This document shows positions 493 to 13,138 of a DNA stretch of 18,645 nt, in pieces. A program made the position numbers and the translations under genes. The stretch comes from a virus. Its lineage: Duplodnaviria; Heunggongvirae; Uroviricota; Caudoviricetes. Position 1 is the stretch's first letter. Each line of letters begins with the position of its first letter. The notes below the pieces were generated by a model, which saw only the letters and a list, made by a program, of their open reading frames with translations, had not been told where the DNA came from and ran no database searches. Location of the stretch: the IMG/VR virus record IMGVR_UViG_3300029241_000184; one strand, written 5' to 3'.

Positions 493-1722
493 TTATGCGG
501 CAATAACTTTGCATTTTTGAGACGAAACATAGTCACTCCACCATTGCATGAGAACCACCCGTTCAGTGAGATACTCTGCACGATTGTAGGCTGCAATTAT
601 TTCATCTTTCTTCGAGTGGGCAAGGGCGGCTTCTAAGACATCAGTCCTAAACTTGCCAGACTCCTCAGCAGCCGTTCTAGCAATGGATCGCATACCGTGA
701 GCTACAAGCTCACCTCCGAAACCCATACGGATTATGGCCGCATTAGCTGTTTGTTCATGCATGTGATTGAGTGGAGCTTTGATACTGGGGAACACCCACT
801 CTCTATGCCCGCTGATGACTTTCATTAAATCCAAAACTCGCAAAGCTTCTTTGCTCAGTGGAACTTTGTGAGGCTTCTTCATTTTCATAAACTCCGCCGG
901 GATGTTCCACATGCCAGTTTCAATATCAATATCTGACCATCTTGTGCGAACAGCTTCACCTGGGCGAACCCATGTGAGAAGTTGCCACTCAATCAGTAGC
1001 CTTGTTTCCAAACGGATAGAAGCATTGTTTAGAGCAACCAAGAAGCGAGGGAGTTCGGAAGGGGGTAATGCTGGCATATTCTGTTTTTTTGGCTTGCTGA
1101 ACCGTTGCCCCAGGTTGTCTGCCGGGTTGAATTCTATGAGTTCTTCTGTTGCTGCATAGCGGAAAATTTCATTCAGGCGGGATATGATGCGGCGAAGTGT
1201 TTCAAGGACACCTCGTTTTTCTATGGGTTCTAAATGCTGTTTAAGCATTTTAGGGCGAATCTCCTTAATTGGGGTATCACCCAATGTGGAAAAGATATTT
1301 CTCTCTAGGCTTCGCCAGATGTCGTTAGCATGATCTTGGGAGATGCCTGACGTTTTGACTTTCTCATCAAGCCACTTCTTGGCTACTGCTTGAAATGTAT
1401 GTTCCGTGGCATCTTTCAGTGCATTGGCTTTTTGGTTGTTATGAACTTGGGGGTCTATACCATTTGTAAGCAACGACAAGTATTCATCACGTAAAGCTCG
1501 TGCCTTCGCAAGTGTAAGGTGAGGATAGGTTCCTAAGCTCACCTTAGTTCGCTTTTTGGTCACAGGCACTGCATATCTGAAATACCAATTTTTCTTCCCT
1601 CCCTTCGCCAGGGGAGCGATTCGCAACAGCAAACCATCGCCGTCAAAAAGGTTAACCTCTTTTTCGGCAGGTTTGGTGCTTTTGATTTCAGTGTCAGTGA
1701 GCTTCTTAGCGATTTTGGCCAT
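493..1722 (-). CDS. int: Tyrosine recombinase, P4-family integrase (integrase of an older, neighbouring island)
   Basis: ORF 493..1803; preferred start is the in-frame ATG at 1722 (MAKIAKKLTDTEIK..., GAGGG about 10 nt upstream). N-terminus KLTDTEIK...DGDGLLL is typical of P4-like integrase arm-binding domains; C-terminus carries HGMRS and AYNRAEY, consistent with the H-x-x-R and catalytic Tyr boxes. Paralogous to the integrase at 11401..12591. Confidence 0.88.
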   Translation of the reverse strand: MAKIAKKLTDTEIKSTKPAEKEVNLFDGDGLLLRIAPLAKGGKKNWYFRYAVPVTKKRTKVSLGTYPHLTLAKARALRDEYLSLLTNGIDPQVHNNQKANALKDATEHTFQAVAKKWLDEKVKTSGISQDHANDIWRSLERNIFSTLGDTPIKEIRPKMLKQHLEPIEKRGVLETLRRIISRLNEIFRYAATEELIEFNPADNLGQRFSKPKKQNMPALPPSELPRFLVALNNASIRLETRLLIEWQLLTWVRPGEAVRTRWSDIDIETGMWNIPAEFMKMKKPHKVPLSKEALRVLDLMKVISGHREWVFPSIKAPLNHMHEQTANAAIIRMGFGGELVAHGMRSIARTAAEESGKFRTDVLEAALAHSKKDEIIAAYNRAEYLTERVVLMQWWSDYVSSQKCKVIAA

Positions 1723-1820
1723 GTTTGGGACCCTCGATTTTAGGACCCATCTTCGTGGGTCCCATTCAGGGTGCCATAACTCGTAGTTCTCAGCAATTCT
1801 CACTAGACTACAATAGACGT

Positions 1821-1854
1821 AAAAAAGCCCGCAGAGCTTGTGCTGTGCGGGCTT
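1821..1854 (-). terminator. Hairpin plus T-run on the minus strand; diverged duplicate of the ssrA terminator
   Basis: aaaaaagcccgcagagcttgtgctgtgcgggctt matches the ssrA terminator at 12708..12742 (aaaaaagcccacagggcttgtgccgtgcgggctt) with three substitutions; GC stem followed by a T-run when read on the minus strand. Confidence 0.5.
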
Positions 1855-1888
1855 AGTAGACTTTACTGAACTTCAGTACATCAATATT

Positions 1889-1910
1889 TGGTGGGCTGGC
1901 GGAGTCTGAC
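1889..1910. other. Degenerate copy of the ssrA 3' end; likely attR of the P4-like satellite and junction between the two tandem islands
   Basis: tggtgggctggcggagtctgac versus the true ssrA 3' end tggtggagctggcgggagttgaac at 12775..12798 (about 20 of 24 positions with two 1-nt gaps), lying the same distance and order from the terminator-like hairpin as in the intact ssrA. Confidence 0.5.
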
Positions 1911-2102: not shown

Positions 2103-2762
2103 TTACGGCTCTTCGCTATTGGGGTTCTTAACTTTTTCCCATTCAATGCCCAACCCTTTAAATTTTTGTGCAAATGGGATTACTATGAGCGCAACACAAG
2201 CCCCTAATAGTGCCATTCTCTCAGTGGTTAAAAAATTAAATCGTATATCTGCAATTACTATAAGTAATAAGGCGACAGCAAGAAACCAAGTAACTCGTTG
2301 AAAAATATCCATCGTTTGAGATTTTTTCTGCCGAATATCATTTTTCCTAACTGCTGACTGCTCTGCGGTAAGGGCTCGAAAAGTTGGGAAAAGATTGAAA
2401 TCAGATTTAACTAATTCACCCGAATCACTGACTGAATACAGTGAAAATGGCAATGGGTTATTAGGCAGGGAGGATACGGTCACCAAGAAAAGTGGGATTT
2501 TTTCATTTCCAATTGCTTGTTTGTATCTTTTTAATTGATTTAGAGTGTTTTCGCTATGTGCAAATCTGTCTGACTTTATTTCAATAATAGCAAGATATTC
2601 TTTCTTTTCTGGATCTATAATTGCAAAGTCTGGTCTATATGTGTTTTTGCCATCGTTGGAGAAAAATGCTGGTTCGTATAATATAGAATCTTTGGTATAT
2701 CCTAGTGATAATAAGTATTCAGAGAATTTATTTTCCGCCTCTGAATGGTAATTGTTGTCCAT
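2103..2762 (-). CDS. Membrane-anchored protein with an N-terminal restriction-endonuclease-like (PD-(D/E)xK, HsdR-N-like) motif and two C-terminal transmembrane helices; AT-rich cargo gene
   Basis: 219-aa ORF with GAGAGGGA about 7 nt upstream of the ATG at 2762. N-terminal segment LGY...YRPDFAIIDPEKKEYLAIIEIKS carries a D ... E-I-K arrangement as in restriction-endonuclease-fold proteins; C-terminus has two hydrophobic stretches (WFLAVALLLIVIADI and ALLGACVALIVIPFA). Visibly AT-rich compared with the neighbouring primase gene. Confidence 0.7.
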   Translation of the reverse strand: MDNNYHSEAENKFSEYLLSLGYTKDSILYEPAFFSNDGKNTYRPDFAIIDPEKKEYLAIIEIKSDRFAHSENTLNQLKRYKQAIGNEKIPLFLVTVSSLPNNPLPFSLYSVSDSGELVKSDFNLFPTFRALTAEQSAVRKNDIRQKKSQTMDIFQRVTWFLAVALLLIVIADIRFNFLTTERMALLGACVALIVIPFAQKFKGLGIEWEKVKNPNSEEP

Positions 2763-2956
2763 TACAGTCCCTCTCTGCTGTGTGAAAACTAGTGAGCTAA
2801 ATTAATAAGGTAACTAAAAAACGCAAGAGATTCAATTGATTAACGAGTGATAGGTCAAGTCAAGGTCAAACTCGGCGATCATGATGGTTATCTTGTTGAA
2901 TCACAGCCAGACATGATGAATTTCTAGGTTGGAGAAAAAACTTTTTTTCAGGAAAA

Positions 2957-3058
2957 CTGTTCACACTGTTCACACTGTTCACACCGTTGTTTTTGCTTTT
3001 AATTTCATAGTGATACGTTGTGAATGGTTGGTAAACAGTGAACACTTTACTGTTCATT
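2957..3058. repeat. Iteron cluster: three tandem CTGTTCACA repeats (2957..2983) plus inverted and variant copies (gtgaaca 3038..3044, tgttcat 3052..3058); candidate ori-type alpha-binding iterons
   Basis: Tandem 9-bp repeats seen directly; the core TGTTCAC matches the P4 type I iteron octamer TGTTCACC that I recall as the alpha-protein binding site in P4 ori and crr. Lies immediately downstream of the alpha-like gene. Confidence 0.6.
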
Positions 3059-3108
3059 TTTGCCGTTTTGCAGGTAAAAAAAGACCGGCGATTGCCGGTC
3101 AGGGTAGA

Positions 3109-5442
3109 TTATTTTGCTACAGGGTCATCACATTTCGGCAGCCAGTCGGCGTTGCTTTCCTCTCTTAGTGTTAGATTGGTTTGTATGCCCTGATTTTTTC
3201 GGCGCTTCTCATAACTTAGCCCGTACTCTTTCAGCATAGCTGGCAGCCCCTTACCGAACATGGTGAGGCTCAGGGTGTTCCTGTAGCCGTGGGCCTCCAT
3301 ATACGCCAGATAGGCATGATACAGATACAGGCGCGGCTGACGCGGAATGATGTTGGCATTGCCAATATACATTCCCTCAGGCTCCGGCAGTGCTTCCAGA
3401 TAGCCGCAAAAATCAAATGTCGGGTCAGCATCGCGTTTAATACTGAGCGCCTCGTCCGAGTTCTGCTGTGACTGGAGCAGGGCGCGGGCGGTCATCGGGT
3501 CGCTGAACTTCTGCATAAGCTGCCGAACAATCACCGCCAGCTCACGGGCGATTTTATTCTTAAGCTGCGGGTCACGTTCCTCCGGGGCAATCTGTTCCGG
3601 GAAATGCAGAATCACCCGGCGCCGTGAGACACCGCCGCTACGGTCGGTAAAGCGCATCGGGTTATTGTTCACGGCCAGAATCACCGCTGGAATATGGGTG
3701 GAGTACGCATCCTTGTATTTCGGGTCAACGGAGACCGCATCCCCGCCGGTGATGGCCTTGAGTCCTGCCCCGTCACCACTCCATTTTTCCTGGTCAGGCA
3801 GGCGTATCAGCGAGAAGCCAATCAGCGCAGCGCGTTCACGCGGTGATTCCAGCGTTTCGATGGTGGCCGATGTGGCGTTATCTTCCCCGGCGAGCAGGGT
3901 CGCAATTTCGGCCAGAATACTTTTCCCGCTGCCACCCGGCCCGGTCACTTCGAGAAAGAGCTGCCAGTCGTAGCGGTTCGCCAGTACCATAAACAGGGCG
4001 GCAAGTATCACGTCGCGTTTTTCCGGTCGGCCACCGGCGGCACGGTCGAGCCAGCGCCAGAAATCCGGCGCATGGGTTTCCAGCGTTTCGCCCTCCACCG
4101 GTGGGGTAAAATCGACATCACAGAGTGTGCGCAGCCAGTGCGATTTATGATGCGGGCTGAAAGTACCGGTAGCGGTATCGAGTACGCCGTTACGAAAACC
4201 AATCAGACGGCGCGCCGGTGCGTCCTGCTGCGGAATAATCAGTTTCAGGGTCTCCACCACTGAGGCAATTTTCCCCGACGAGAACGGTGCGCGCAGACGC
4301 TGAAATAACCCGGCCACGTCGCGGGCAAAATCCGATGGCGGAATGATTTTCCATATACCGGCCTCATAGCGGGACAGGAGCTGGCCATTTGCGTCCACGG
4401 CCAGCGCTTCGCCGTAATGTTCATGCACCCGCATTGCCTTTTCACTGGTGCTCATGGCGGTAAATTCCGCCTCGCTCATGGTAGTGAAAGGACTGTCAGC
4501 CAGTGGCCGGATGGCGTCATAAATCGCTTTCCGCGTCGCCTCTTCGCCTTTCTGAACGAACGCATCATTCCAGTCACCGAACACCGGCGGCAGGGCAACA
4601 ACACCCTCACAGGCGTCTGCGGCCGCAGCGGCTTTTGTCTGGCCGGCGCCGTTAAGGTCACGGTCGGCGGCGAGGACAATCTGACAGGCCGGGTGTTTCT
4701 GACGGGCAAGGCTCGCCAGAGAAAAGAGGTTCACGGAGGACAGCGCCACCATGACGGTTTCGCTGGTCAGGTGATGTACGGTGAGTGCCGTCGCATAACC
4801 CTCCGCAATCCACAGGCGTTTTCCGGCCTGTTTTTTTCCTCCGATGACATGACATGTCCCTTTGACCTGACCGCCTTTCAGGGTGCGTTTGAGACCGTCA
4901 GCATTAATAAGCTGAAGGTTAACCAGTGCGCCGGTATCCTCATACAGCGGGACAACCACATCCCCGGCGCGGAACGTCACGCCGCCGGTTTTATGCATGA
5001 CTGTCAGTACCGGACATTCCCGGTCGGGGAACCCCTTGCGGGTGAGGTAGGCGTTGTCGGTGGCCGGGCGCGTTTTCTCCAGCAGTCTGACGGCCAGCGC
5101 GGCCGCCGCTTTGCGGTCGGCATCGGTTTCAGCCTCTGCGGCTGCCATCACTTCCGGGGCAACCGGCGACAGATTGCCGGTCACGGCGTTCACCTTCCCG
5201 GCGGCTTCTGACGGGGTCACGCCAAACACTTTTTCTACCAGCTTAAGCCCGTCACCCGCGCCGCACTGATTGCAGAACCACGTCCCGCGCCCTTCTTTAT
5301 CGTCAAAGCGAAAACGGTCAGAGCCGCCACACACCGGACAGGCCTGATGGCGGTTTTTAATCACCTTCACACCCAGCGCCGGAAGAATGCGCGGCCAGTG
5401 GCCGCACGCCTGTTTTACCGTTTCTGTTACGTTCATTTTCAT
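3109..5442 (-). CDS. P4 alpha-type primase/helicase (zinc-binding primase N-terminus plus helicase domain)
   Basis: ORF 3109..5493; preferred start at ATG 5442 (MKMNVTETV..., GAGGGAG upstream) giving 777 aa, the length of P4 alpha. N-terminal CPVCGG...CNQCG zinc-binding motif; Walker A-like GPGGSGKS in the C-terminal half. Confidence 0.9.
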   Translation of the reverse strand: MKMNVTETVKQACGHWPRILPALGVKVIKNRHQACPVCGGSDRFRFDDKEGRGTWFCNQCGAGDGLKLVEKVFGVTPSEAAGKVNAVTGNLSPVAPEVMAAAEAETDADRKAAAALAVRLLEKTRPATDNAYLTRKGFPDRECPVLTVMHKTGGVTFRAGDVVVPLYEDTGALVNLQLINADGLKRTLKGGQVKGTCHVIGGKKQAGKRLWIAEGYATALTVHHLTSETVMVALSSVNLFSLASLARQKHPACQIVLAADRDLNGAGQTKAAAAADACEGVVALPPVFGDWNDAFVQKGEEATRKAIYDAIRPLADSPFTTMSEAEFTAMSTSEKAMRVHEHYGEALAVDANGQLLSRYEAGIWKIIPPSDFARDVAGLFQRLRAPFSSGKIASVVETLKLIIPQQDAPARRLIGFRNGVLDTATGTFSPHHKSHWLRTLCDVDFTPPVEGETLETHAPDFWRWLDRAAGGRPEKRDVILAALFMVLANRYDWQLFLEVTGPGGSGKSILAEIATLLAGEDNATSATIETLESPRERAALIGFSLIRLPDQEKWSGDGAGLKAITGGDAVSVDPKYKDAYSTHIPAVILAVNNNPMRFTDRSGGVSRRRVILHFPEQIAPEERDPQLKNKIARELAVIVRQLMQKFSDPMTARALLQSQQNSDEALSIKRDADPTFDFCGYLEALPEPEGMYIGNANIIPRQPRLYLYHAYLAYMEAHGYRNTLSLTMFGKGLPAMLKEYGLSYEKRRKNQGIQTNLTLREESNADWLPKCDDPVAK

Positions 5443-5456
5443 CGTTGTTTTCTCCC

Positions 5457-5777
5457 TCAGTGCACTACCGGTACGGTGATGTGACGGGCGCAAAGCTCAT
5501 CCATCACGGCCAGCCCGAGAAAGGACAGCGACGGCGCGGCTTTGAGTGGACCGGCTTCCATTAAATCTTCCAGTAATGCACAGGCTATCTGGCGGCCTTT
5601 TTCCTCGCCGTGCTGGCGCAGGTAGAAGCCCTCCAGCTCGGTAGCGATGGCACTTTCCAGCGCGTCGAGGGTGAGGTTCGGGTAGCGGCGCTGGCGTTCG
5701 CACAGGGTCAGCCATGCACAGGCCACGGCGCGACGATACAGCGCGGCGCGTAATACGGGCGGTAATGGCTTTTTCAT
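5457..5777 (-). CDS. Hypothetical protein of the satellite early operon (106 aa)
   Basis: ORF whose start overlaps the stop of the upstream ORF (translational coupling), ending 15 nt before the alpha start; same strand and operon as the alpha gene. No recognisable motif. Confidence 0.55.
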
Positions 5778-6001
5778 ACGTTGCCCTCCCCGGTCAGCCA
5801 GTGCTGATTGCAGCGTTCAACCACGCCGTCGAGCTGGGCGGTCATGAGGTAAATCACGGAGGTGAGCTGTAACTGCTGCGCCGGGTCACGACGAACGGTG
5901 GCGCAGTCCTGTACCTGCATCAGGTCGCTGACGAGCTGGCCGACATTGCGCATATGCTCCAGACATTCGAGGTCACGGGCGGTAATGGTGGTGTGTCTCA
6001 T
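5774..6001 (-). CDS. Hypothetical small protein of the satellite early operon (75 aa)
   Basis: ORF with start/stop overlaps (ATGA) to both neighbours on the same strand, typical of coupled small genes in P4-like early operons. Confidence 0.5.
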
Positions 6002-6192
6002 GCGCGCACCTCCGCAACAGGCAGACGGCCAGCAAATGAGAGGACGTAATCGCGAACGAGGGAAAGGCGTGCGGCGTGCTCATCACCGGCAACGGTGCGG
6101 AGCATACAAATACGGGGTTTACGGTCTGCACGACGAACGGCGGCAAACACAAAAACAAATTGCGGGTGTAACGGGGTGAGGATAGTAGCCAT
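5998..6192 (-). CDS. Hypothetical small protein (64 aa), possibly Icd-like; short form of the 185-aa ORF
   Basis: Internal ATG at 6192 ([19 protein letters not shown]...) preceded by GGAGG about 8 nt upstream; the longer 5998..6555 extension is low-complexity and overlaps the AlpA-like gene, so the short form is preferred. The Icd-like label is a recollection of similar annotations, not verified. Confidence 0.45.
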
Positions 6193-6551
6193 GATGGCAG
6201 CCTCCATTGAGTAGCGGTTACTGCTACCACCGGAAACGCCAATTTCACTGGTGGCAGCCCGAACGGGGTTGGCGTAACCGGCCTCAATGGATACCGGCCA
6301 GCCCGAAGGCTGCCCCGCCCGGACTACCATTATCTTGCTGGAACCATGGTGTATAAAAAGACACCACAACCCGGAAAATGGGTGTGCCTGAGCTACGACG
6401 AAAAAAAAGACGCACGGCGCGTCTGGTGTCGCCATTGAGTTTCGCGGAACGCCAATTCCGGCTGTCGATTTTGCGACAGCGGGAAAACTATACCTGGAAA
6501 CGGCGAAAAGAAGCAAGCCAGAAAAAGGGGCTGAATGCTGAACGGTCATCA

Positions 6552-6818
6552 TCATGCGTCACAGCCCCGGTTGCGTTCGGCAATGCGATCTGCCATCCAT
6601 GCGGTGATTTCAGACTGCGCCCACGCCACGTTTTTACCGCCCAGGCTGATTTGTTTCGGGAAGGCTTCCCGGCTGATGAGGTCATAAATGGTCGACCGGG
6701 ACAGGCCACACAGATGCATCACTTCGGGCAGGCGGATAAAGCGCTCCTGAACGGCATCAGAAACCGGCATCAGCGGCGCGGCAGGGGCAGAAGACGGGGA
6801 AGAAAAAGCGGTGTGCAT
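6552..6818 (-). CDS. alpA: AlpA-family phage transcriptional regulator (small DNA-binding, excisionase-like)
   Basis: [54 protein letters not shown] matches the AlpA/excisionase-like helix-turn-helix family; GAGGT upstream of the ATG at 6818. An alternative start at 6770 (MPVSD) is possible. Confidence 0.8.
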
Positions 6819-7087
6819 CGGGCTACCTCACAAAGTCCATACAGTGCCGGTCGTGTCCGTCCGGCTTCGGGTAGCTCTCTATTTTGTGAATATTTTCCCT
6901 CAGGGCAACAAGTCTTTTTATAGCTCCTCGTCACACAACAGAGCGATTTTTGAACAATGGCAAACGCTGGCAAACAGATGCAAATCAATGCATTACATTG
7001 CAGTAACTTTAAGTACTTTCACTTATATATTTCCTCATAATTAATCGGAAAAAAGACTAAATCCGACACCCCAGGCAAAAAGCAAAA

Positions 7088-7192
7088 GGTGAACAGTAGT
7101 GAACAGTCGGTGAACAGTTACACCCTCAACTGTTCACCCTTTATCTTACTGTATTACTTATCTTTTTCTTTTCAGTGAACAGTAGTGAATAG
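7088..7192. repeat. Second iteron cluster: GGTGAACAGT x3 (7088..7117), inverted TGTTCACC (7131..7138), GTGAACAG (7175..7182) and variant gtgaatag; candidate crr-type alpha-binding iterons in the divergent early/late control region
   Basis: Direct and inverted copies of the same octamer as at 2957..3058, about 4.1 kb away; I recall that P4 ori and crr are separated by about 4.5 kb. Confidence 0.6.
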
Positions 7193-7268
7193 TTATAAGT
7201 AAAAAAACAAACAGTGAGTAAGGTTTTCCTGAGACCTTTCTCTGGCCAGCCGGGTTTTAAGGTCTGTT

Positions 7269-7286
7269 TGTGCCATTTTTGCCACA
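7269..7286 (+). promoter_or_regulatory. TGT-N12-ACA dyad upstream of the sid-like gene; candidate Ogr/Delta activator site of the late promoter
   Basis: TGTgccatttttgccACA about 75-90 nt upstream of the ATG at 7359; P2/P4 late promoters carry a TGT-N12-ACA element near -55. No clear -10 identified, so low confidence. Confidence 0.3.
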
Positions 7287-7358
7287 ACGGCAATGAATCG
7301 TGTTGTTGTGTCTGGCGCGGCAGAATCTCCTCAGGTTGAAACGAAGAGGAGACCCGAC

Positions 7359-8096
7359 ATGACTCAGACCGCTGTTATTCCCGACTACCTTAAACCTGCA
7401 ATGGAACGCCTTGAGACTGCCCGCTCGGCGCATCTCGTCAATGCCAGCCGTATGGATGAAACCACGACGGCCATCAGCCAGGTGCAAACGCAAAAAAAGG
7501 AACTGGAGCAGGAAAACGGCAATGATTCCGGCGCATGGCGCGCCGCCTTTCGTGCCGGTGGTGCTGTCATTACCGACGAGCTGAAACAACGCCATCTGGC
7601 GCGCGTGGCACGGCGGGAACTGGCGCAGGAATGTGACAGCATGAACGAGGTACTGTCTTTTGAGCTGGACAGGCTCAAAGGAGCCTGTGACCGCACGGCC
7701 AGAGCATACCGTCAGGCACATCACGGCGTCCTCAGTCAGTATGCAGAGCATGAACTTGATGCTGCCCTGCGTGAAAGCTGCGGTGCCCTCATCAGAGCAA
7801 TGAAACTCAACATACTGGTTCTGAATAATCCGCTTGCTAATACGACCGGGCATCAGGGATATATCGAACCGGAAAAAGTTGTAATGCAGCAGGTGAAAGC
7901 GTGGCTTGAACAGGCCGTAAAGGGCTGCAATATCCGTCTGACCGATGAACCGGTGCTGTTTAAAACAGGGCTGTCGGCTTCCACACTGCCGCATATGGAA
8001 CATGACGTTGCGACCATGCCCGGTCAGCGAAAAGTCTGGCAGGAAAAAATGTGGGAACGTGAAGCTGACCTGAAAGCACGGGGGTTATTGTCATGA
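7359..8096 (+). CDS. sid: Sid-like protein (P4 capsid size determination / external scaffold), first gene of the late operon
   Basis: ORF 7293..8096 trimmed to ATG 7359 (MTQTAVIPDYLKP..., AAGAGGAG upstream) giving 245 aa, close to P4 Sid (244 aa); position immediately upstream of the Ogr/Delta-like and psu-like genes matches the P4 sid-delta-psu order. Called from size and synteny only. Confidence 0.55.
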   Translation: MTQTAVIPDYLKPAMERLETARSAHLVNASRMDETTTAISQVQTQKKELEQENGNDSGAWRAAFRAGGAVITDELKQRHLARVARRELAQECDSMNEVLSFELDRLKGACDRTARAYRQAHHGVLSQYAEHELDAALRESCGALIRAMKLNILVLNNPLANTTGHQGYIEPEKVVMQQVKAWLEQAVKGCNIRLTDEPVLFKTGLSASTLPHMEHDVATMPGQRKVWQEKMWEREADLKARGLLS

Positions 8097-8338
8097 TGCG
8101 CTGCCCTTTCTGCCGCACGGCGGCACACGTTCGCACCAGCCGCTATATGTCTGACAGCGTCAAAGAGAGTTACCTGCAGTGCCAGAATGTGCACTGCTCG
8201 GCGACATTCAAAACGCATGAGTCCATCTTTGAAGTGATACGTTCGCCGGTCGTCGATGAGAAACCCGCGCCGGTGCCGACAGCCCCCGTGGCACCCCGTC
8301 GGGTAAAAGGCTGCTACAGCTCGCCGTTCCGCCATTAA
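8093..8338 (+). CDS. Ogr/Delta-family zinc-finger late-gene transcriptional activator
   Basis: MMRCPFCRTAAHVRTSRYMSDSVKESYLQCQNVHCSATFKTHES has the C-x2-C ... C-x4-C arrangement and RTSRY / QCQN motifs of P2 Ogr and P4 Delta; start overlaps the stop of the sid-like gene. Confidence 0.85.
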   Translation: MMRCPFCRTAAHVRTSRYMSDSVKESYLQCQNVHCSATFKTHESIFEVIRSPVVDEKPAPVPTAPVAPRRVKGCYSSPFRH

Positions 8339-8354
8339 TCAGGAGAGACAACCC

Positions 8355-8921
8355 GTGACCACTCTGACCTTACAGCAGGCCTATGACGCCTGTCAGACGA
8401 ACAAAACCGCGTGGCTGAACCGTAAAACCGAACTGGCCGCCGCAATGCAGGAATATCAGGAATTATTGCTGGATGACAATGTATCAGGCTCCCGCAGATT
8501 ACAGATGCTGCGTGACCTGATTGACGTAAAAAAATGGGAAGTTAATCAGGCCGCCGGTCGCTACATCTTCTCGCATGAGGAGGTGCAGCGCATCAGCATC
8601 CGTAACCGGCTGCATGATTTTATGCAGCAGAACGGCGCAGAGCTGGCCGCCGCACTGGCACCGGAGCTGATGGGGATTAAAAACCAGCCCGCGATGATAA
8701 AAAATCGCGCGCTTGACCGTTCAGTCTCTTACCTGAGAGAAGCTCTTTCCGTCTGGCTGACCGCTGGAAATGACATTAATTATTCTGCACTGGATAACGA
8801 CATCTTAACGGCCATCGGATACAGGCCTGACGCGCCTTCGCGGGATGATAATCGTGAAAAATTCACCCCTGCACAGAACATGATTTACACCCGTCGACGC
8901 GCCGGACTGGCCGCGCAGTAG
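8355..8921 (+). CDS. psu: Psu-like protein (P4 polarity suppression / capsid decoration)
   Basis: 188 aa (P4 Psu is 190 aa), third gene of the sid-delta-psu type operon; N-terminal region ...QQAYDACQTNKTAWLNRKTELAAA... and QAAGRYI resemble Psu as I recall it. Confidence 0.75.
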   Translation: MTTLTLQQAYDACQTNKTAWLNRKTELAAAMQEYQELLLDDNVSGSRRLQMLRDLIDVKKWEVNQAAGRYIFSHEEVQRISIRNRLHDFMQQNGAELAAALAPELMGIKNQPAMIKNRALDRSVSYLREALSVWLTAGNDINYSALDNDILTAIGYRPDAPSRDDNREKFTPAQNMIYTRRRAGLAAQ

Positions 8922-8967
8922 TCTGTCAAAAAATCCCTGTAAATCCCGTCATTTTTCCCGAATTTAG

Positions 8968-8994
8968 CCATGCATCCCTAAGGTGCATGGTTTT
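8968..8994 (+). terminator. Candidate rho-independent terminator after the psu-like gene
   Basis: Inverted repeat ccatgca / tgcatgg with a 9-nt loop followed by tttt. Confidence 0.4.
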
Positions 8995-9094
8995 GCATGC
9001 GTTTTCCCGACCCTGCACTCCCTGCCAGCGCCAGTTGCGGCGCGGCCTGAGGCCACCTTTGCACCTGCATTAAAAGCGGTCCCTTAAGCGGGCA

Positions 9095-9113
9095 GGCGTG
9101 GCGGGGAGAGCAT
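9095..9113. other. cos-like site (P2/186/P4-type 19-nt cohesive end sequence)
   Basis: ggcgtggcggggagagcat differs at one position from the phage 186 cohesive end GGCGTGGCGGGGAAAGCAT as I recall it, and at three from P2 (GGCGAGGCGGGGAAAGCAC); lies just downstream of psu, where cos sits in P4. Confidence 0.55.
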
Positions 9114-9375
9114 TGCGCGCTAAGTTAAAGATACTTTTAATTTTACAACTACGTTGTGATATCTTTTTAACTCGCTAATTCAATAGTGATAAAACAATTT
9201 TTTATAGCTAATAAGAATCAATTCCAGACTAACAATCGTCAAAAACTATGTTTTGTGAATGGCTATCTAAAAATACTGGCTTAATTATTTGACGTGATCT
9301 AAAGTACTGATGAAATTATTATACTGATTTAATTTTTTAACTGCTAAAAACATTAACAAAAAATAAGGGATTCAC

Positions 9376-11361
9376 ATGGCAGAGAAATCATTTAATGTAG
9401 AAGTACAGATGGATTATTTAGATAAGGTTTCTAAATCTTCTGCATTACAAGCAATCGCTGAGTTGGTATGGAATGCCTTAGATGCTGATGCTGAAAATGT
9501 ATATGTTGATTTGACAGAGTCTGAATTAGGACTCTCGCATATATTTATCAGGGATGATGGTAATGGTATTCCCTATGAGAATGCAGAAAAATTATTTAGT
9601 TCACTGGGCGGATCATGGAAAAAAGACAAGGTTTTATCAGAAAGAAAATCTCGTTTTTTACACGGAAAAGAAGGGCAGGGACGTTTTAAGGCATTCTCAA
9701 TAGGTCGATATATTGAGTGGGATACTACTTATTTACTTGATGATGTATATTATGAATATAAAATAAAAGGAATAGCTGATAATAAGAAAAAGATTTCAGT
9801 TTCTGATAAGGTAGTATCAAGTGAAGTTAAATCAGGAACAGTTGTTTCTATATTGGAATTGGTGAAAAACTTCACCTCTTTGACACCTCAAAAACTATCT
9901 GAGTTTCTTTCCACTACACTTGCTTTATATCTTAGTAAATACCCATCCGTAAAAGTATTTGTAAATCGAGAACAAATCGATCCAACAGCACAGATTTTAT
10001 TTGATACAAGCTATAAATTAGATGATGTAGTTTATTGTGATGAATTACATTCATATGAGTTACAAGTTATTGAATGGAAGTCAGCTAAAGAAAATGAGAT
10101 TTTTTTATGCGACAAAGAAGGTTTTCCCTTAATAAGTTATGAGAAGAAAATTAGAGGGACTGGTACATATTCTTATTCTGTTTATTTGAAGTCTACACAT
10201 TTGACCAAACTTTCCCATGAGGGTACTTTGTCGCTCATGGATTTAGAGCCTTCTTTAAGCCCTGTATTAAATAAAGTCGAAGGTTTGATAAAGGAACACT
10301 TCCGGAAAAGAGATCATGAAAAGTCAAGGGAGTTAATTGATAAATGGAAAAATGAAGGTGTTTATCCGTATGTTGGTAAGGCCGAAAATATTGTTGAGGA
10401 TGCTGAAAGAAAAGTATTCGATATTATGGCCATCAATGTTATAAAATACATACCACAATTTGATAATGGCGATCTTAAACTTAAGAAATTTCAGTTTAAA
10501 TTACTCAAGCATATTGTTGGGAGTTGCCCTGATGACTTGAGAACTATATTAGAGGAGGTTCTCTCGCTTCCTAAGGAAAAACAAGCTGAATTGGCTGAGA
10601 TATTAAGGGATGCCTCATTGTCAGCTGTTATTAGTGTTTCCAAAATAATTACTGATAGATTGAAGTTCATATCTGGGCTTGAGAATGTATTATTTCATCC
10701 GAATACAAGAAAAGTATTCAAAGAGAGAAGTCAGCTTCATAAAATAATGGCGGATAATACATGGTTTTTTGGTGAGTCTTTTACATTGAGTGTCAATGAT
10801 AAGTCACTAACTGAAGTATTAAAAGTACATTTGGAAAAGCAAGGGATTGATATTCCAGTTGATGAGAAAGTAACTAGGATAGATGGTAGTGTAGGTATTG
10901 TTGATTTAATGCTTACTAGAAGTATAGGCAAAAATTACCCAGATGAGCGTGAGCATATTATTATCGAATTAAAGGCACCTAAAGTAAATATAGGTCAATC
11001 AGAAATAGAACAGGTTAAATCCTATGCGTATGCAGTTGCTGAAGACGCAAGATTTAATGGTTTAAAAACAAAGTGGAACTTCTGGGTTATATCGAATGAG
11101 CTCACAACTTATGCTCTCAGAGAATTAAAACAAAAAAACCTTCCTGAAGGTGCAATATATCAAGCTGAAGAAATGACTATTTGGATAAAAACTTGGTCCC
11201 AACTTATTCAAGAGAACAAACATAGATTGGGTTTTCTACAGAATCAGCTTAATATTTCGTATGACCGTGAAGATGGACTACAGTTCTTAAAGCAAAAGTA
11301 TGCTGAGTACACTGAGGGCGTTGTATTTGAAAATGAATCACAGGATGAGTATATAGATTAA
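9376..11361 (+). CDS. 661-aa GHKL-type (HATPase_c, Bergerat-fold) ATPase fused to a C-terminal PD-(D/E)xK-like nuclease motif; candidate single-gene anti-phage defense protein carried as satellite cargo
   Basis: Single uninterrupted ORF with AAGGGA 6 nt upstream of the ATG. N-terminus: E29-x3-N33-A-x-D36-A (N box; E29 codon at 9460), D60-D-G-N-G64-I (G1 box, 9556..9567), G97-K-E-G-Q-G102 (G2 box, 9664..9681). C-terminus: GIVD510LML ... IIIE531LK533 (D at 10903..10905, E-L-K at 10966..10974) in the arrangement of PD-(D/E)xK nucleases. Strongly AT-rich with A/T-ending codons, unlike the flanking P4 core genes. Confidence 0.85.
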   Translation: MAEKSFNVEVQMDYLDKVSKSSALQAIAELVWNALDADAENVYVDLTESELGLSHIFIRDDGNGIPYENAEKLFSSLGGSWKKDKVLSERKSRFLHGKEGQGRFKAFSIGRYIEWDTTYLLDDVYYEYKIKGIADNKKKISVSDKVVSSEVKSGTVVSILELVKNFTSLTPQKLSEFLSTTLALYLSKYPSVKVFVNREQIDPTAQILFDTSYKLDDVVYCDELHSYELQVIEWKSAKENEIFLCDKEGFPLISYEKKIRGTGTYSYSVYLKSTHLTKLSHEGTLSLMDLEPSLSPVLNKVEGLIKEHFRKRDHEKSRELIDKWKNEGVYPYVGKAENIVEDAERKVFDIMAINVIKYIPQFDNGDLKLKKFQFKLLKHIVGSCPDDLRTILEEVLSLPKEKQAELAEILRDASLSAVISVSKIITDRLKFISGLENVLFHPNTRKVFKERSQLHKIMADNTWFFGESFTLSVNDKSLTEVLKVHLEKQGIDIPVDEKVTRIDGSVGIVDLMLTRSIGKNYPDEREHIIIELKAPKVNIGQSEIEQVKSYAYAVAEDARFNGLKTKWNFWVISNELTTYALRELKQKNLPEGAIYQAEEMTIWIKTWSQLIQENKHRLGFLQNQLNISYDREDGLQFLKQKYAEYTEGVVFENESQDEYID

Positions 11362-11371
11362 CATAATTGAA

Positions 11372-11402
11372 AGGCTCGCCAGTTTATTCTGGCGAGTTTC
11401 TT
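11372..11402 (+). terminator. Rho-independent terminator after the cargo gene, convergent with the end of int
   Basis: Stem ctcgccag / ctggcgag (8 bp) with a 6-nt loop, followed by tttctt. Confidence 0.5.
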
Positions 11403-12591
11403 AAAGACTGGATACTTTATTACCCCACCAATTCATTAATTCTATTCTTTGCGGAAGATATATAGAGCGATTATAAGCTCTTCGTACTTCATCTTTATAA
11501 CTATGAGCTAGTGCTGCCTCAATAACATCAGCATTGAATCCTGCTTCATTCATGGCAGTACTGGCTATAGAACGTAAACCATGTGCAACAAGCTTTCCAC
11601 CATAACCAATTCTCTTCAGCGCAGCATTAGCAGTCTGGCTATTCATTGGCAGCTTAGGGTCATTTCTGCTAGGAAAAACATGTTCTCGATGGGCACTGAT
11701 TGGCTTCATCACTTCTAAAATTTCTAATGCTTGAGGAGACAAAGGTACGATGTGCTCTCGTTTAGCCTTCATCCGTTCGGCTGGAATCGTCCAAAGCTTC
11801 GCATCAAGATCGATCTCTTCCCACCGAGCTCCGGAAGCCTCAGAAGGACGCACAAGGGTCAGGAGCTGCCACTCAATTAGACAGCGAGTCGAAACAGATA
11901 GATTCGACATGACTAGAGAACGCATCAGCTTTGGCAATTCCTCTGGCCGCAGCGTCGGCATATTTTGCTTTTTGGGCTTCTCAAAGGCCATCCCAACTCC
12001 TGAGGCTGGGTTCGCATCAATCAGACCCGTGTTTACGGCATAAATCATTATCTCGTTAATGCGTTGCACCAGTCGACGTACAGTCTCAAGCGCCCCACGA
12101 GCTTTGATGGGCTCAAGAGCTTCAACCAGTGTCCGGGCTTTGATTTGCTGAACAGGGATCTCACCGATGGCAGGGAATACATCTTTCTCCAGTGAGCGCC
12201 AAATGTCTTTTGCGTAATCAGGGGTAACGCTTTTGCTTTTGAGCTGGAACCAGTTAGCGGCGACCGTTGAAAAAATACTGTCCAGTGCGATTTGCTGCTG
12301 TTCCTCTGCAACTTCAGCTTGAATCTGTGGGTCGATTCCATTGGCTAATAAGGCAAGGTAATCAGCTCTTAACCCTCGGGCATCAGCAAGCGATAGGGCG
12401 GGGAAGGCTCCGAGTCCCATCATTGTCCGCTGTTTTGTTGCCGGACGTTGATAACGGAAACGCCAGAGCTTTTTGCCGCTGGTTTTCACTATCAGGAAAA
12501 GCCCATCGCCATCATGTAGCGTTAGATCCTTCTCTAGCGCTTTAGCGCGCAGAACTTCGGTGTTGGTCAGGGGGCGTGTTGTCCGTGCCAC
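11401..12591 (-). CDS. int: Tyrosine recombinase, P4-family integrase of the satellite, adjacent to ssrA
   Basis: 396-aa ORF; N-terminal LTLHDGDGLFL...GKKLWRFRY as in P4-type integrases; C-terminal HGLRS and AYNRSIY catalytic boxes; same orientation as ssrA and immediately downstream of it. Confidence 0.92.
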   Translation of the reverse strand: MARTTRPLTNTEVLRAKALEKDLTLHDGDGLFLIVKTSGKKLWRFRYQRPATKQRTMMGLGAFPALSLADARGLRADYLALLANGIDPQIQAEVAEEQQQIALDSIFSTVAANWFQLKSKSVTPDYAKDIWRSLEKDVFPAIGEIPVQQIKARTLVEALEPIKARGALETVRRLVQRINEIMIYAVNTGLIDANPASGVGMAFEKPKKQNMPTLRPEELPKLMRSLVMSNLSVSTRCLIEWQLLTLVRPSEASGARWEEIDLDAKLWTIPAERMKAKREHIVPLSPQALEILEVMKPISAHREHVFPSRNDPKLPMNSQTANAALKRIGYGGKLVAHGLRSIASTAMNEAGFNADVIEAALAHSYKDEVRRAYNRSIYLPQRIELMNWWGNKVSSL

Positions 12592-12707: not shown

Positions 12708-12742
12708 AAAAAAGCCCACAGGGCTTGTGCCGTGCGGGCTTT
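12708..12742 (-). terminator. ssrA rho-independent terminator
   Basis: On the minus strand, stem aagcccgcacggcacaagccctgtgggctt followed by tttttt, about 33 nt downstream of the mature tmRNA 3' end. Confidence 0.7.
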
Positions 12743-12774: not shown

Positions 12775-13138
12775 GTGGTGGAGCTGGCGGGAGTTGAACC
12801 CGCGTCCGAAATTCCTACATCCTCGGTACTACATGCTTAGTCAGTCTTTATATTCGCTTGCCAGCTGCGGACGGACACGCCACTAACAAACTAGCCTGAT
12901 TAAGTTTTAACGCTTCAACCCCAGGCAGGGCTTCCACGCGATCTCTTTTGGGTTTGACCTCTCTTGATCCCCGTCCTAAGAGCGGAGGCTAGGGAGAGAG
13001 GGCTCTAAGCAGGTTATTAAGCTGCTAAAGCGTAGTTTTCGTCGTTTGCGACTATTTTTTGCGGCTTTTTACGAGGCCAACCGCCCCTCGGCATGCACCT
13101 TGGGTTTCGCAAATCCCGTCGAATCCAGAATCAGCCCC
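12775..13138 (-). ncRNA. ssrA: tmRNA (SsrA, transfer-messenger RNA)
   Basis: Minus strand reads GGGGCTGATTCTGGATTCGACGGG ... GGAGTTGAACCCGCCAGCTCCACCA; internal tag reading frame at 13017..13049 (minus) encodes ANDENYALAA followed by a stop. Length about 363 nt; ends are within a few nt. Confidence 0.95.

What the first reader, a model, noticed from the sequence alone, without database searches (positions are those of the whole stretch)
7088..7192. Second iteron cluster in the divergent early/late control region (crr-type) about 4.1 kb from the first
Five to six copies of GTGAACAG/TGTTCACC in both orientations lie between the AlpA-type early operon and the sid-type late operon. Two iteron clusters at this spacing resemble the ori plus crr arrangement of P4. 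Their location inside the regulatory region also raises the possibility that alpha binding influences the divergent promoters.
Basis: partly seen in the sequence, partly recalled or inferred. Interest (0 to 1): 0.45.

Follow-up and report, generated by a model that had tools for sequence, protein, structure and literature searches.

The report
P4-type satellite replication origin (ori)
The repeat cluster is real, but it is the main replication origin of a P4-like satellite prophage in E. coli, not the accessory "crr" site; crr is the other cluster, so this is a well-known element with its two labels swapped.

Summary
GTGAACAG occurs exactly five times at 7089-7182 and a sixth copy (GTGAATAG) sits at 7185-7192. 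The window has 8 exact copies against 0.59 expected by chance.

The "crr-type" label is wrong. The window carries a P4-like satellite prophage of about 10.9 kb, integrated at ssrA. The region 6700-7310 is colinear with phage P4 8912-9533, the stretch GenBank annotates as "origin of DNA replication" with six "ori type 1 repeats".

The layout is three direct iterons, one inverted, a 36-bp spacer of 78% A+T, then two direct. The start-to-start spacing of 10/11/20/45/10 bp is identical to P4 ori. The same layout recurs 1.5-2.5 kb upstream of alpha in 44 of 63 related loci across Enterobacterales.

The true crr is the other cluster (about 2935-3063). It lies just downstream of the alpha terminator and aligns to P4's 120-bp crr unit.

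The cognate parts are present:
- alpha, 85% identical to P4 alpha, with the origin-binding domain solved as PDB 1KA8
- cnr, 88% identical

The flanking promoters are, by homology, the two late ones (PLL and Psid). The iterons end 76 bp short of the Psid activator box, so nothing suggests direct promoter control. This is an already known kind of element and of low interest.

The parts
7088..7192 (+). ori (P4 ori1 homologue): six type I iterons plus an A+T-rich spacer
   Evidence: Colinear with the P4 annotated origin. Spacing 10/11/20/45/10 is identical to P4. The layout is conserved in 44-47 related loci.
7088..7096 (+). iteron 1, GGTGAACAG
7098..7106 (+). iteron 2, AGTGAACAG
7109..7117 (+). 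iteron 3, GGTGAACAG. With iteron 4 it forms a perfect 11-bp inverted repeat (7109-7119 / 7128-7138).
   Evidence: I6
7130..7138 (-). iteron 4, inverted (CTGTTCACC on the + strand)
7139..7174 (.). A+T-rich spacer, 78% A+T, nearly identical to P4 (81% A+T). Presumed unwinding region.
   Evidence: Mean 79% A+T across 47 related loci.
7174..7182 (+). iteron 5, AGTGAACAG
7184..7192 (+). iteron 6, AGTGAATAG. One mismatch in the octamer, but this is the commonest form at this position in relatives (30 of 47).
2935..3063 (+). crr (cis replication region), a single unit homologous to the P4 120-bp crr repeat. Three tandem CTGTTCACA at 2957-2983, then degenerate inverted and direct copies at about 3019-3059.
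   Evidence: Alignment A3. Megablast places it under the P4 crr features of X05623 and X51522. It has the crr-type layout seen downstream of alpha in relatives.
3076..3100 (-). alpha transcription terminator (GACCGGC..GCCGGTC stem followed by a T run on the - strand)
   Evidence: Aligns to the annotated P4 t-alpha.
3109..5442 (-). alpha primase-helicase with a C-terminal origin-binding winged-helix domain. The homology-supported start is the ATG at 5442.
   Evidence: 85% identical to P4 alpha. Residues 688-787 of the 794-aa ORF match PDB 1KA8 at E 2.4e-47. Pfam Zn_Ribbon_Prim, Toprim, D5_N, Pox_D5. The RefSeq annotation of an identical element gives 777 aa.
5457..5777 (-). cnr (P4 ORF106) homologue, the copy-number regulator that acts on alpha
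   Evidence: 88% identical to P4 ORF106. Pfam DUF5375.
6552..6818 (-). vis / ORF88 (AlpA family) homologue, left neighbour of the origin
   Evidence: 70% identical to P4 ORF88. Pfam Phage_AlpA.
7269..7286 (.). TGT-N12-ACA box upstream of sid (Delta/Ogr-type activator site of Psid), 76 bp right of iteron 6
   Evidence: Aligned with the same box in P4. A box lies 55-94 bp (mostly 75-78) to the right of iteron 6 in 44 of 49 layouts.
7359..8096 (+). sid homologue, right neighbour of the origin
   Evidence: 64% identical to P4 Sid.

Best explanation
The cluster at 7088-7192 is the replication origin (the homologue of P4 ori, called ori1 in the later literature) of a P4-like satellite prophage integrated at ssrA. 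Proposed mechanism, transferred from P4: the element's own alpha protein recognises the GTGAACA-core iterons through its C-terminal winged-helix domain. It binds the six ori iterons and the iterons of crr, 4.1 kb away just past the alpha terminator. It then opens the A+T-rich 36-bp segment between iterons 4 and 5, and acts as both helicase and primase to start replication. Cnr restrains alpha. What the sequence shows here: homology, identical architecture, conservation across relatives, and the presence of every replicon part. What is inferred: that alpha binds, that the duplex melts at the spacer, and that this particular prophage can still replicate.
For: 1. blastn places window 6700-7310 on P4 8912-9533, under 'origin of DNA replication' and 'ori type 1 repeat (x6)'. 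The P4 feature table puts ori at 9086-9809 between ORF88 and sid, and crr at 4291-4590 between int/attP and the alpha terminator.
2. In the pairwise alignment every iteron and the spacer are in register.
3. Orientation +++-++ and spacing 10/11/20/45/10 are identical in the window and in P4. Of 63 alpha-bearing loci with enough upstream DNA, 44 carry a cluster of at least four iterons 1.5-2.5 kb upstream of alpha, nearly all in the +++-++ arrangement or a version of it with one iteron missed, at 9-10/11/19-20/44-46/9-10 spacing. The genera include Enterobacter, Klebsiella, Edwardsiella, Pectobacterium, Serratia and Rahnella. A 20-sequence alignment shows the iteron cores and spacer positions invariant.
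4. The spacer is 78% A+T against 52% for the whole window.
5. Cognate proteins are present: alpha is 85% identical to P4 alpha, including the 1KA8 origin-binding domain, and cnr is 88% identical.
6. The partner site is present: the 2935-3063 cluster aligns to the P4 crr unit.
7. PMC4234260 states that P4 alpha binds the repeats at the P4 replication origin through its winged-helix domain, then unwinds and primes.
Against: There is no functional evidence for this element. The prophage could be replication-defective despite intact parts. Iteron 6 departs from the octamer (GTGAATAG), although this is the majority form in relatives. crr is a single unit rather than P4's two, although single units are common in relatives. 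The primary P4 papers on ori1 dissection could not be retrieved, so details of the minimal origin rest on my recollection.
Confidence: 0.9

Rival explanations
1. One reading: this cluster is the crr-type accessory site, and the cluster at 2957-3058 is the origin proper.
For: Both clusters share the same iteron and lie 4.1 kb apart. From the iteron sequence alone the two are not distinguishable.
Against: The cluster is colinear with P4 ori, not crr. It has the ori-specific layout (+++-++, 45-bp step across an A+T-rich spacer). It does not have the crr layout of 9/43/18/14-bp steps, which the left cluster does have. The left cluster lies under annotated crr features of X05623 and X51522. In relatives the two architectures always keep their sides of alpha.
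Confidence: 0.03
2. The repeats are mainly operators for transcription control of the divergent promoters. They would be bound by alpha, Vis or Delta to couple replication with late gene expression, with origin function secondary or absent.
For: The cluster lies in the 540-bp gap between divergent operons. The distance from iteron 6 to the Psid TGT-N12-ACA box is tightly kept, 75-78 bp in 31 of 49 layouts.
Against: The iterons do not overlap any core promoter or activator box. They lie 76 bp from the Psid box and about 115 bp from the only promoter-like site on the left. The same iterons recur at crr, which is not a promoter region. The conserved distance can be explained by plain homology without indels. 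The Delta/Ogr-type box is a different sequence.
Confidence: 0.05
3. The cluster is a decayed relic in a defective prophage: once an origin, now non-functional.
For: Many P4-like prophages in enterobacterial genomes are cryptic (my own knowledge). No experimental data exist for this element.
Against: All six iterons keep the family-typical sequence and spacing. alpha, cnr, vis, sid, delta and psu are full-length ORFs. crr, a cos-like site and the CI-type RNA are present. The same element is 97-99% identical in at least ten E. coli genomes.
Confidence: 0.05

Closest known systems
Phage P4 ori (ori1), X51522 9086-9809, type 1 repeats at 9310-9413
   Same: It lies in the same position, between ORF88/vis and sid. 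It has the same six iterons in the same orientations with identical 10/11/20/45/10 spacing, and a nearly identical A+T-rich spacer. The cognate alpha is 85% identical.
   Different: Iteron 6 is GTGAATAG, where P4 has GTGAACAG. Iteron 4 is CTGTTCAC, where P4 has TTGTTCAC. The DNA to the left of the iterons has diverged. P4's three 10-bp 'ori type 2 repeats' (9176-9205) have no sequence counterpart here; by eye, a different run of TGGCAAAC/TGCA-type units about 10 bp apart occupies that place (6958-7008).
Phage P4 crr (cis replication region), X51522 4291-4590
   Same: It uses the same iteron core, is bound by the same protein in P4, and is the second half of the same bipartite origin.
   Different: crr lies downstream of the alpha terminator. 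It consists of 120-bp units with iteron steps of 9/43/18/14 bp and has no 36-bp A+T-rich spacer. The finding's cluster matches none of this, while the window's other cluster (2935-3063) does.
Iteron-type plasmid origins (for example pSC101, R6K, P1 oriR)
   Same: Multiple initiator-binding repeats phased at about one helical turn lie next to an A+T-rich segment, with a second iteron cluster elsewhere on the replicon (my own knowledge).
   Different: The initiator here is a primase-helicase fusion with a C-terminal winged-helix domain, not a Rep protein. By published P4 work (my own knowledge) replication is independent of DnaA and DnaG. The iterons are only 8-9 bp long.

Membership tests
P4 ori (ori1) | Six type I iterons (core GTGAACA / TGTTCAC) | tested here: met
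   Five exact GTGAACAG plus one GTGAATAG within 105 bp. 8 copies in the window against 0.59 expected.
P4 ori (ori1) | Arrangement of three direct, one inverted, A+T-rich segment, two direct, with starts spaced 10/11/20/45/10 | tested here: met
   Identical to P4. The same layout is found in 44-47 related loci.
P4 ori (ori1) | A+T-rich segment of about 35 bp inside the iteron array | tested here: met
   7139-7174 is 78% A+T. P4 is 81% and relatives average 79%.
P4 ori (ori1) | Location between ORF88/vis and sid | tested here: met
   vis homologue 6552-6818 (-), sid homologue 7359-8096 (+). P4 map.
P4 ori (ori1) | Sequence homology to the P4 origin | tested here: met
   blastn E 4e-55 over P4 8912-9533. 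The alignment has 78% mean column identity and is near-identical from iteron 1 to beyond iteron 6.
P4 ori (ori1) | Cognate alpha with origin-binding winged-helix domain, cnr, and a crr site in cis | tested here: met
   alpha 85% identical, 1KA8 domain at E 2.4e-47, cnr 88% identical, crr aligned.
P4 ori (ori1) | alpha binds the iterons and replication starts here | not testable with these tools
   Needs EMSA or footprinting and a replication assay.
P4 crr | Location immediately downstream of the alpha terminator | tested here: not met
   The cluster is 1.6 kb upstream of the alpha start, on the far side of cnr, the immunity region and vis. The other cluster, 2935-3063, meets this.
P4 crr | 120-bp unit with iteron steps of 9/43/18/14 bp and homology to the P4 crr repeat | tested here: not met
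   blastn places the region on ori, not crr. The spacing differs.

The most novel reading that the evidence does not exclude
alpha bound at the origin, possibly looped to crr, modulates one or both flanking late promoters, so that replication and late (capsid-size and transactivation) gene expression are physically coupled in P4-like satellites. The tightly kept distance of about 76 bp between iteron 6 and the Psid activator box would then be functional rather than merely inherited.
Probability: 0.08. Interest if true: 0.35.

Novelty: already known. Interest (0 to 1): 0.08.

Why it matters
It matters little beyond annotation. The origin and crr of this prophage family are unannotated in RefSeq genomes: the search over the origin reported no features under the matches shown. 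The survey here shows that the P4 ori layout is conserved almost base-for-base in spacing across many Enterobacterales genera. That gives a simple signature for marking ori and crr in P4-like satellites and for telling the two apart. It does not open a new question.

Tried and rejected
1. Retrieving the primary P4 replication papers failed. These were Tocchetti 1999 on oriI/oriII, the Lindqvist 1993 review and the Flensburg and Calendar 1987 text. They are not in the held library, or the search terms were invalid. I relied instead on the GenBank feature tables of X51522 and X05623, on two secondary papers, and on my own recollection, marked as such.

2. I looked for a canonical TGT-N12-ACA activator box on the leftward (PLL) side of the origin. 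There is none in the window, and only 4 of 49 layouts have one, P4 among them. There is only a loose mirror similarity between 6933-6948 and 7296-7311 (I2). I did not pursue this.

3. I considered a structured single-strand element. Folding 7080-7200 as DNA gives z = -1.97, driven only by the iteron 3/4 inverted repeat. The terminator-like call at 7109-7138 is that same iteron pair, so I do not read it as a terminator.

4. Chance occurrence was rejected by the shuffles.

5. The crr assignment was rejected by position, layout and homology.

Full report
**Observation**

The sequence at 7088-7192 reads GGTGAACAG-t-AGTGAACAG-tc-GGTGAACAG, then 12 nt, then CTGTTCACC, then a 36-nt T-rich stretch, then AGTGAACAG-t-AGTGAATAG. 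The octamer GTGAACAG is exact at 7089, 7099 and 7110 (+), 7130 (-) and 7175 (+). The only other exact copies are at 2957, 2966 and 2975 (-). That makes 8 in the window against 0.59 expected, and 0 of 200 shuffles reach 8. A sixth copy, GTGAATAG, lies at 7185.

**Context**

The window is E. coli chromosome; ten complete genomes match 84-90% of it at 97-99% identity. It carries a P4-like satellite prophage next to ssrA (tmRNA gene at 12776-13138 on the - strand). From right to left the element contains:
- an integrase, 11401-12591 (-)
- a 661-aa ATP-binding protein, 9376-11361
- psu, 8355-8921
- a short delta, 8093-8338
- sid, 7359-8096
- the iteron cluster
- the vis/AlpA gene, 6552-6818 (-)
- an Ash/Icd-like ORF that overlaps Rfam hits to isrK (6403-6480) and to C4 antisense RNA, the family I take to include P4's CI immunity RNA (6247-6334)
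- a 75-aa ORF
- cnr/ORF106, 5457-5777
- alpha, 3109-5442
- the second iteron cluster
- a 219-aa HsdR-N-like ORF

These assignments rest. Identities to the P4 proteins are alpha 85%, ORF106 88%, ORF88 70% and Sid 64%.

**What the cluster is**

A distant blastn of 6700-7400 against phage records hits only P4, at 8912-9533. The features under the match are "origin of DNA replication", "ori type 1 repeat (x6)", "ori type 2 repeat (x3)" and ORF88.

The P4 feature table puts ori at 9086-9809, between ORF88 and sid. Its type 1 repeats are at 9310, 9320, 9331 (-), 9353 (+), 9396 and 9406 (-). It puts crr at 4291-4590, between attP/int and the alpha terminator. So in P4 the origin proper is the cluster between vis and sid, and crr is the cluster just past the 3' end of alpha.

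The pairwise alignment keeps every iteron and the spacer in register, and is nearly identical from iteron 1 to about 20 nt past iteron 6. The start-to-start spacing is 10/11/20/45/10 in both the window and P4.

**The other cluster**

The stretch 2935-3063 aligns along its whole length with each of P4's two 120-bp crr repeats, and then with the alpha terminator. Megablast of the whole element places this stretch under "crr" features in X51522 and in X05623, the separate 3,063-bp P4 record of the alpha gene and crr. It is a single unit with three rather than two tandem 9-bp iterons.

**Comparative test**

I used the window's alpha protein to fetch 80 loci from one-genome-per-species contigs. Of the 63 loci with at least 3.2 kb upstream of alpha, 44 have a cluster of four or more iterons 1.5-2.5 kb upstream. 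In window orientation nearly all read +++-++, or that layout with one iteron missed, at 9-10/11/19-20/44-46/9-10 spacing. A layout-based pattern finds it in 47 loci.

Downstream of alpha the clusters have a different, roughly 92-bp layout: +--++ when alpha is on the + strand. One or two units are present. The two architectures never change sides.

A 20-sequence alignment spanning Enterobacter, Klebsiella, Edwardsiella, Pectobacterium, Serratia, Rahnella, Pantoea and others shows the iteron cores invariant. The spacer motif (TTAC-TGTATTACTTAT-TTTTT) is largely conserved. The spacer is 78% A+T here, 81% in P4 and 79% on average in relatives, against 52% for the window.

The "degenerate" sixth iteron, GTGAATAG, is the majority form at that position (30 of 47). 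P4's GTGAACAG is the minority (9 of 47).

**Mechanism**

The window's alpha carries the zinc-ribbon, Toprim and D5/SF3 helicase domains. Its C-terminal 100 residues match PDB 1KA8, the solved structure of the P4 origin-binding domain, at E 2.4e-47. PMC4234260 summarises that P4 alpha binds the repeats at the P4 origin with this winged-helix domain, then unwinds and primes. A 2026 preprint on P4 phasmids describes crr as the cis-required replication site flanking the non-essential region.

From my own recollection of work I could not retrieve:
- Flensburg and Calendar 1987, Ziegelin et al. 1993 and Tocchetti et al. 1999 showed that both ori and crr are required in cis.
- The minimal ori1 is about 123 bp, comprising the six iterons and a 35-bp A+T-rich region.
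- Removing an iteron, or inserting 6 or 10 bp, inactivates it.
- Cnr restrains alpha.

All these parts are present and intact here. I therefore infer that the same mechanism operates. It has not been demonstrated for this element.

**Promoter idea**

The only canonical TGT-N12-ACA box in the intergenic region is at 7269-7286. It is aligned with the same box upstream of P4 sid. I read a CAGAAT -10-like hexamer at 7321-7326 by eye. Together these would place the Psid start near 7333.

The last iteron ends 76 bp before the box. A box lies 55-94 bp to the right of iteron 6 in 44 of 49 layouts, and the distance is 75-78 bp in 31. On the left, the only sigma-70-like site is at 6973-6946 (-), about 115 bp from iteron 1.

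The iterons therefore overlap neither a core promoter nor an activator site, and direct occlusion is not expected. A looping or topological effect cannot be excluded, and nothing here supports it.

**Verdict**

This is a correct observation of a well-characterised element, with ori and crr mislabelled. It is the replication origin of a P4-like satellite prophage. It is already known and of low interest.

Noticed in passing
window 493-1905: A second island appears to sit in tandem at the satellite's far end. A degenerate copy of the ssrA 3' end (about 1887-1905, TGGTGGGCTGGCGGAGTC, against TGGTGGAGCTGGCGGGAGT at 12776 onward) is followed by a hairpin-like stretch (1821-1854) that shares two exact 10-mers with 12708-12741, next to ssrA. 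Then comes another P4-type tyrosine integrase (493-1803, -). In other E. coli genomes the match to the window stops at 1888-1894 and ypjA follows instead.
   Followed up: partly
window 2957-2983: crr here is a single unit carrying three tandem 9-bp CTGTTCACA iterons. P4 has two 120-bp units with two tandem iterons each. Relatives show one or two units.
   Followed up: partly
window 5998-6555 (-): The ORF that Pfam calls Ash family, and that RefSeq annotates as an Icd-like protein in a near-identical genome, overlaps strong Rfam hits. These are C4 antisense RNA (6247-6334, 82.9 bits), which I take to be the P4 CI-type immunity RNA, and isrK (6403-6480, 74.5 bits). The protein annotation may partly cover an RNA-based immunity region.
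   Followed up: no
window 6958-7008: At the place where P4 has three 10-bp 'ori type 2 repeats' (ACTTAAAG-type), this element seems to have a different run of units about 10-11 bp apart (TGGCAAACGC, TGGCAAACAGA, TGCAAATCAA, TGCATTACAT, TGCAGTAACT). I read these by eye; the tandem-repeat and direct-repeat finders did not report them. They overlap the only leftward promoter-like site (6973-6946). This could be a binding site that co-varies with the 70%-identical Vis protein. That was not tested.
   Followed up: no
window 6819-7088 and related loci: There is no canonical TGT-N12-ACA box on the leftward (PLL) side in this element. Only 4 of 49 layouts have one there (P4 among them, 159 bp from iteron 1), whereas the Psid side has one in 44 of 49. 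Leftward late transcription may be controlled differently in most of these satellites.
   Followed up: partly
window 8093-8338 (+): delta is an 81-aa single Ogr/Delta zinc-finger protein, whereas P4 Delta is a 166-aa tandem duplication. It aligns to both halves of P4 Delta (46% and 36% identity).
   Followed up: partly
window 9095-9113: A cos-like site, GGCGTGGCGGGGAGAGCAT, lies between psu and the cargo gene. It has 3 mismatches to the first 19 nt of the P4 record (GGCGAGGCGGGGAAAGCAC).
   Followed up: partly
window 9376-11361 (+) and 2103-2762 (-): Two cargo genes sit in variable positions. A 661-aa ATP-binding protein between cos and int has only weak N-terminal PADLOC hits to type II restriction enzyme models (E 1.4e-7). 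A 219-aa HsdR-N-terminal-like protein lies between crr and the left end. Both are candidate defence genes of unknown type.
   Followed up: partly
window 5442-5493: The mechanical ORF for alpha starts at TTG 5493 (794 aa). Homology to P4 alpha and the RefSeq annotation of an identical element both begin at the ATG at 5442 (777 aa).
   Followed up: yes
L031, L033, L035, L047: Short contigs (3.8-6.4 kb) in metagenome bins labelled Clostridiales, Ferruginibacter, 'bacterium' and Ruminococcus encode alpha proteins 84-87% identical to this E. coli one. These are probably mis-binned enterobacterial satellite DNA rather than real hosts.
   Followed up: no
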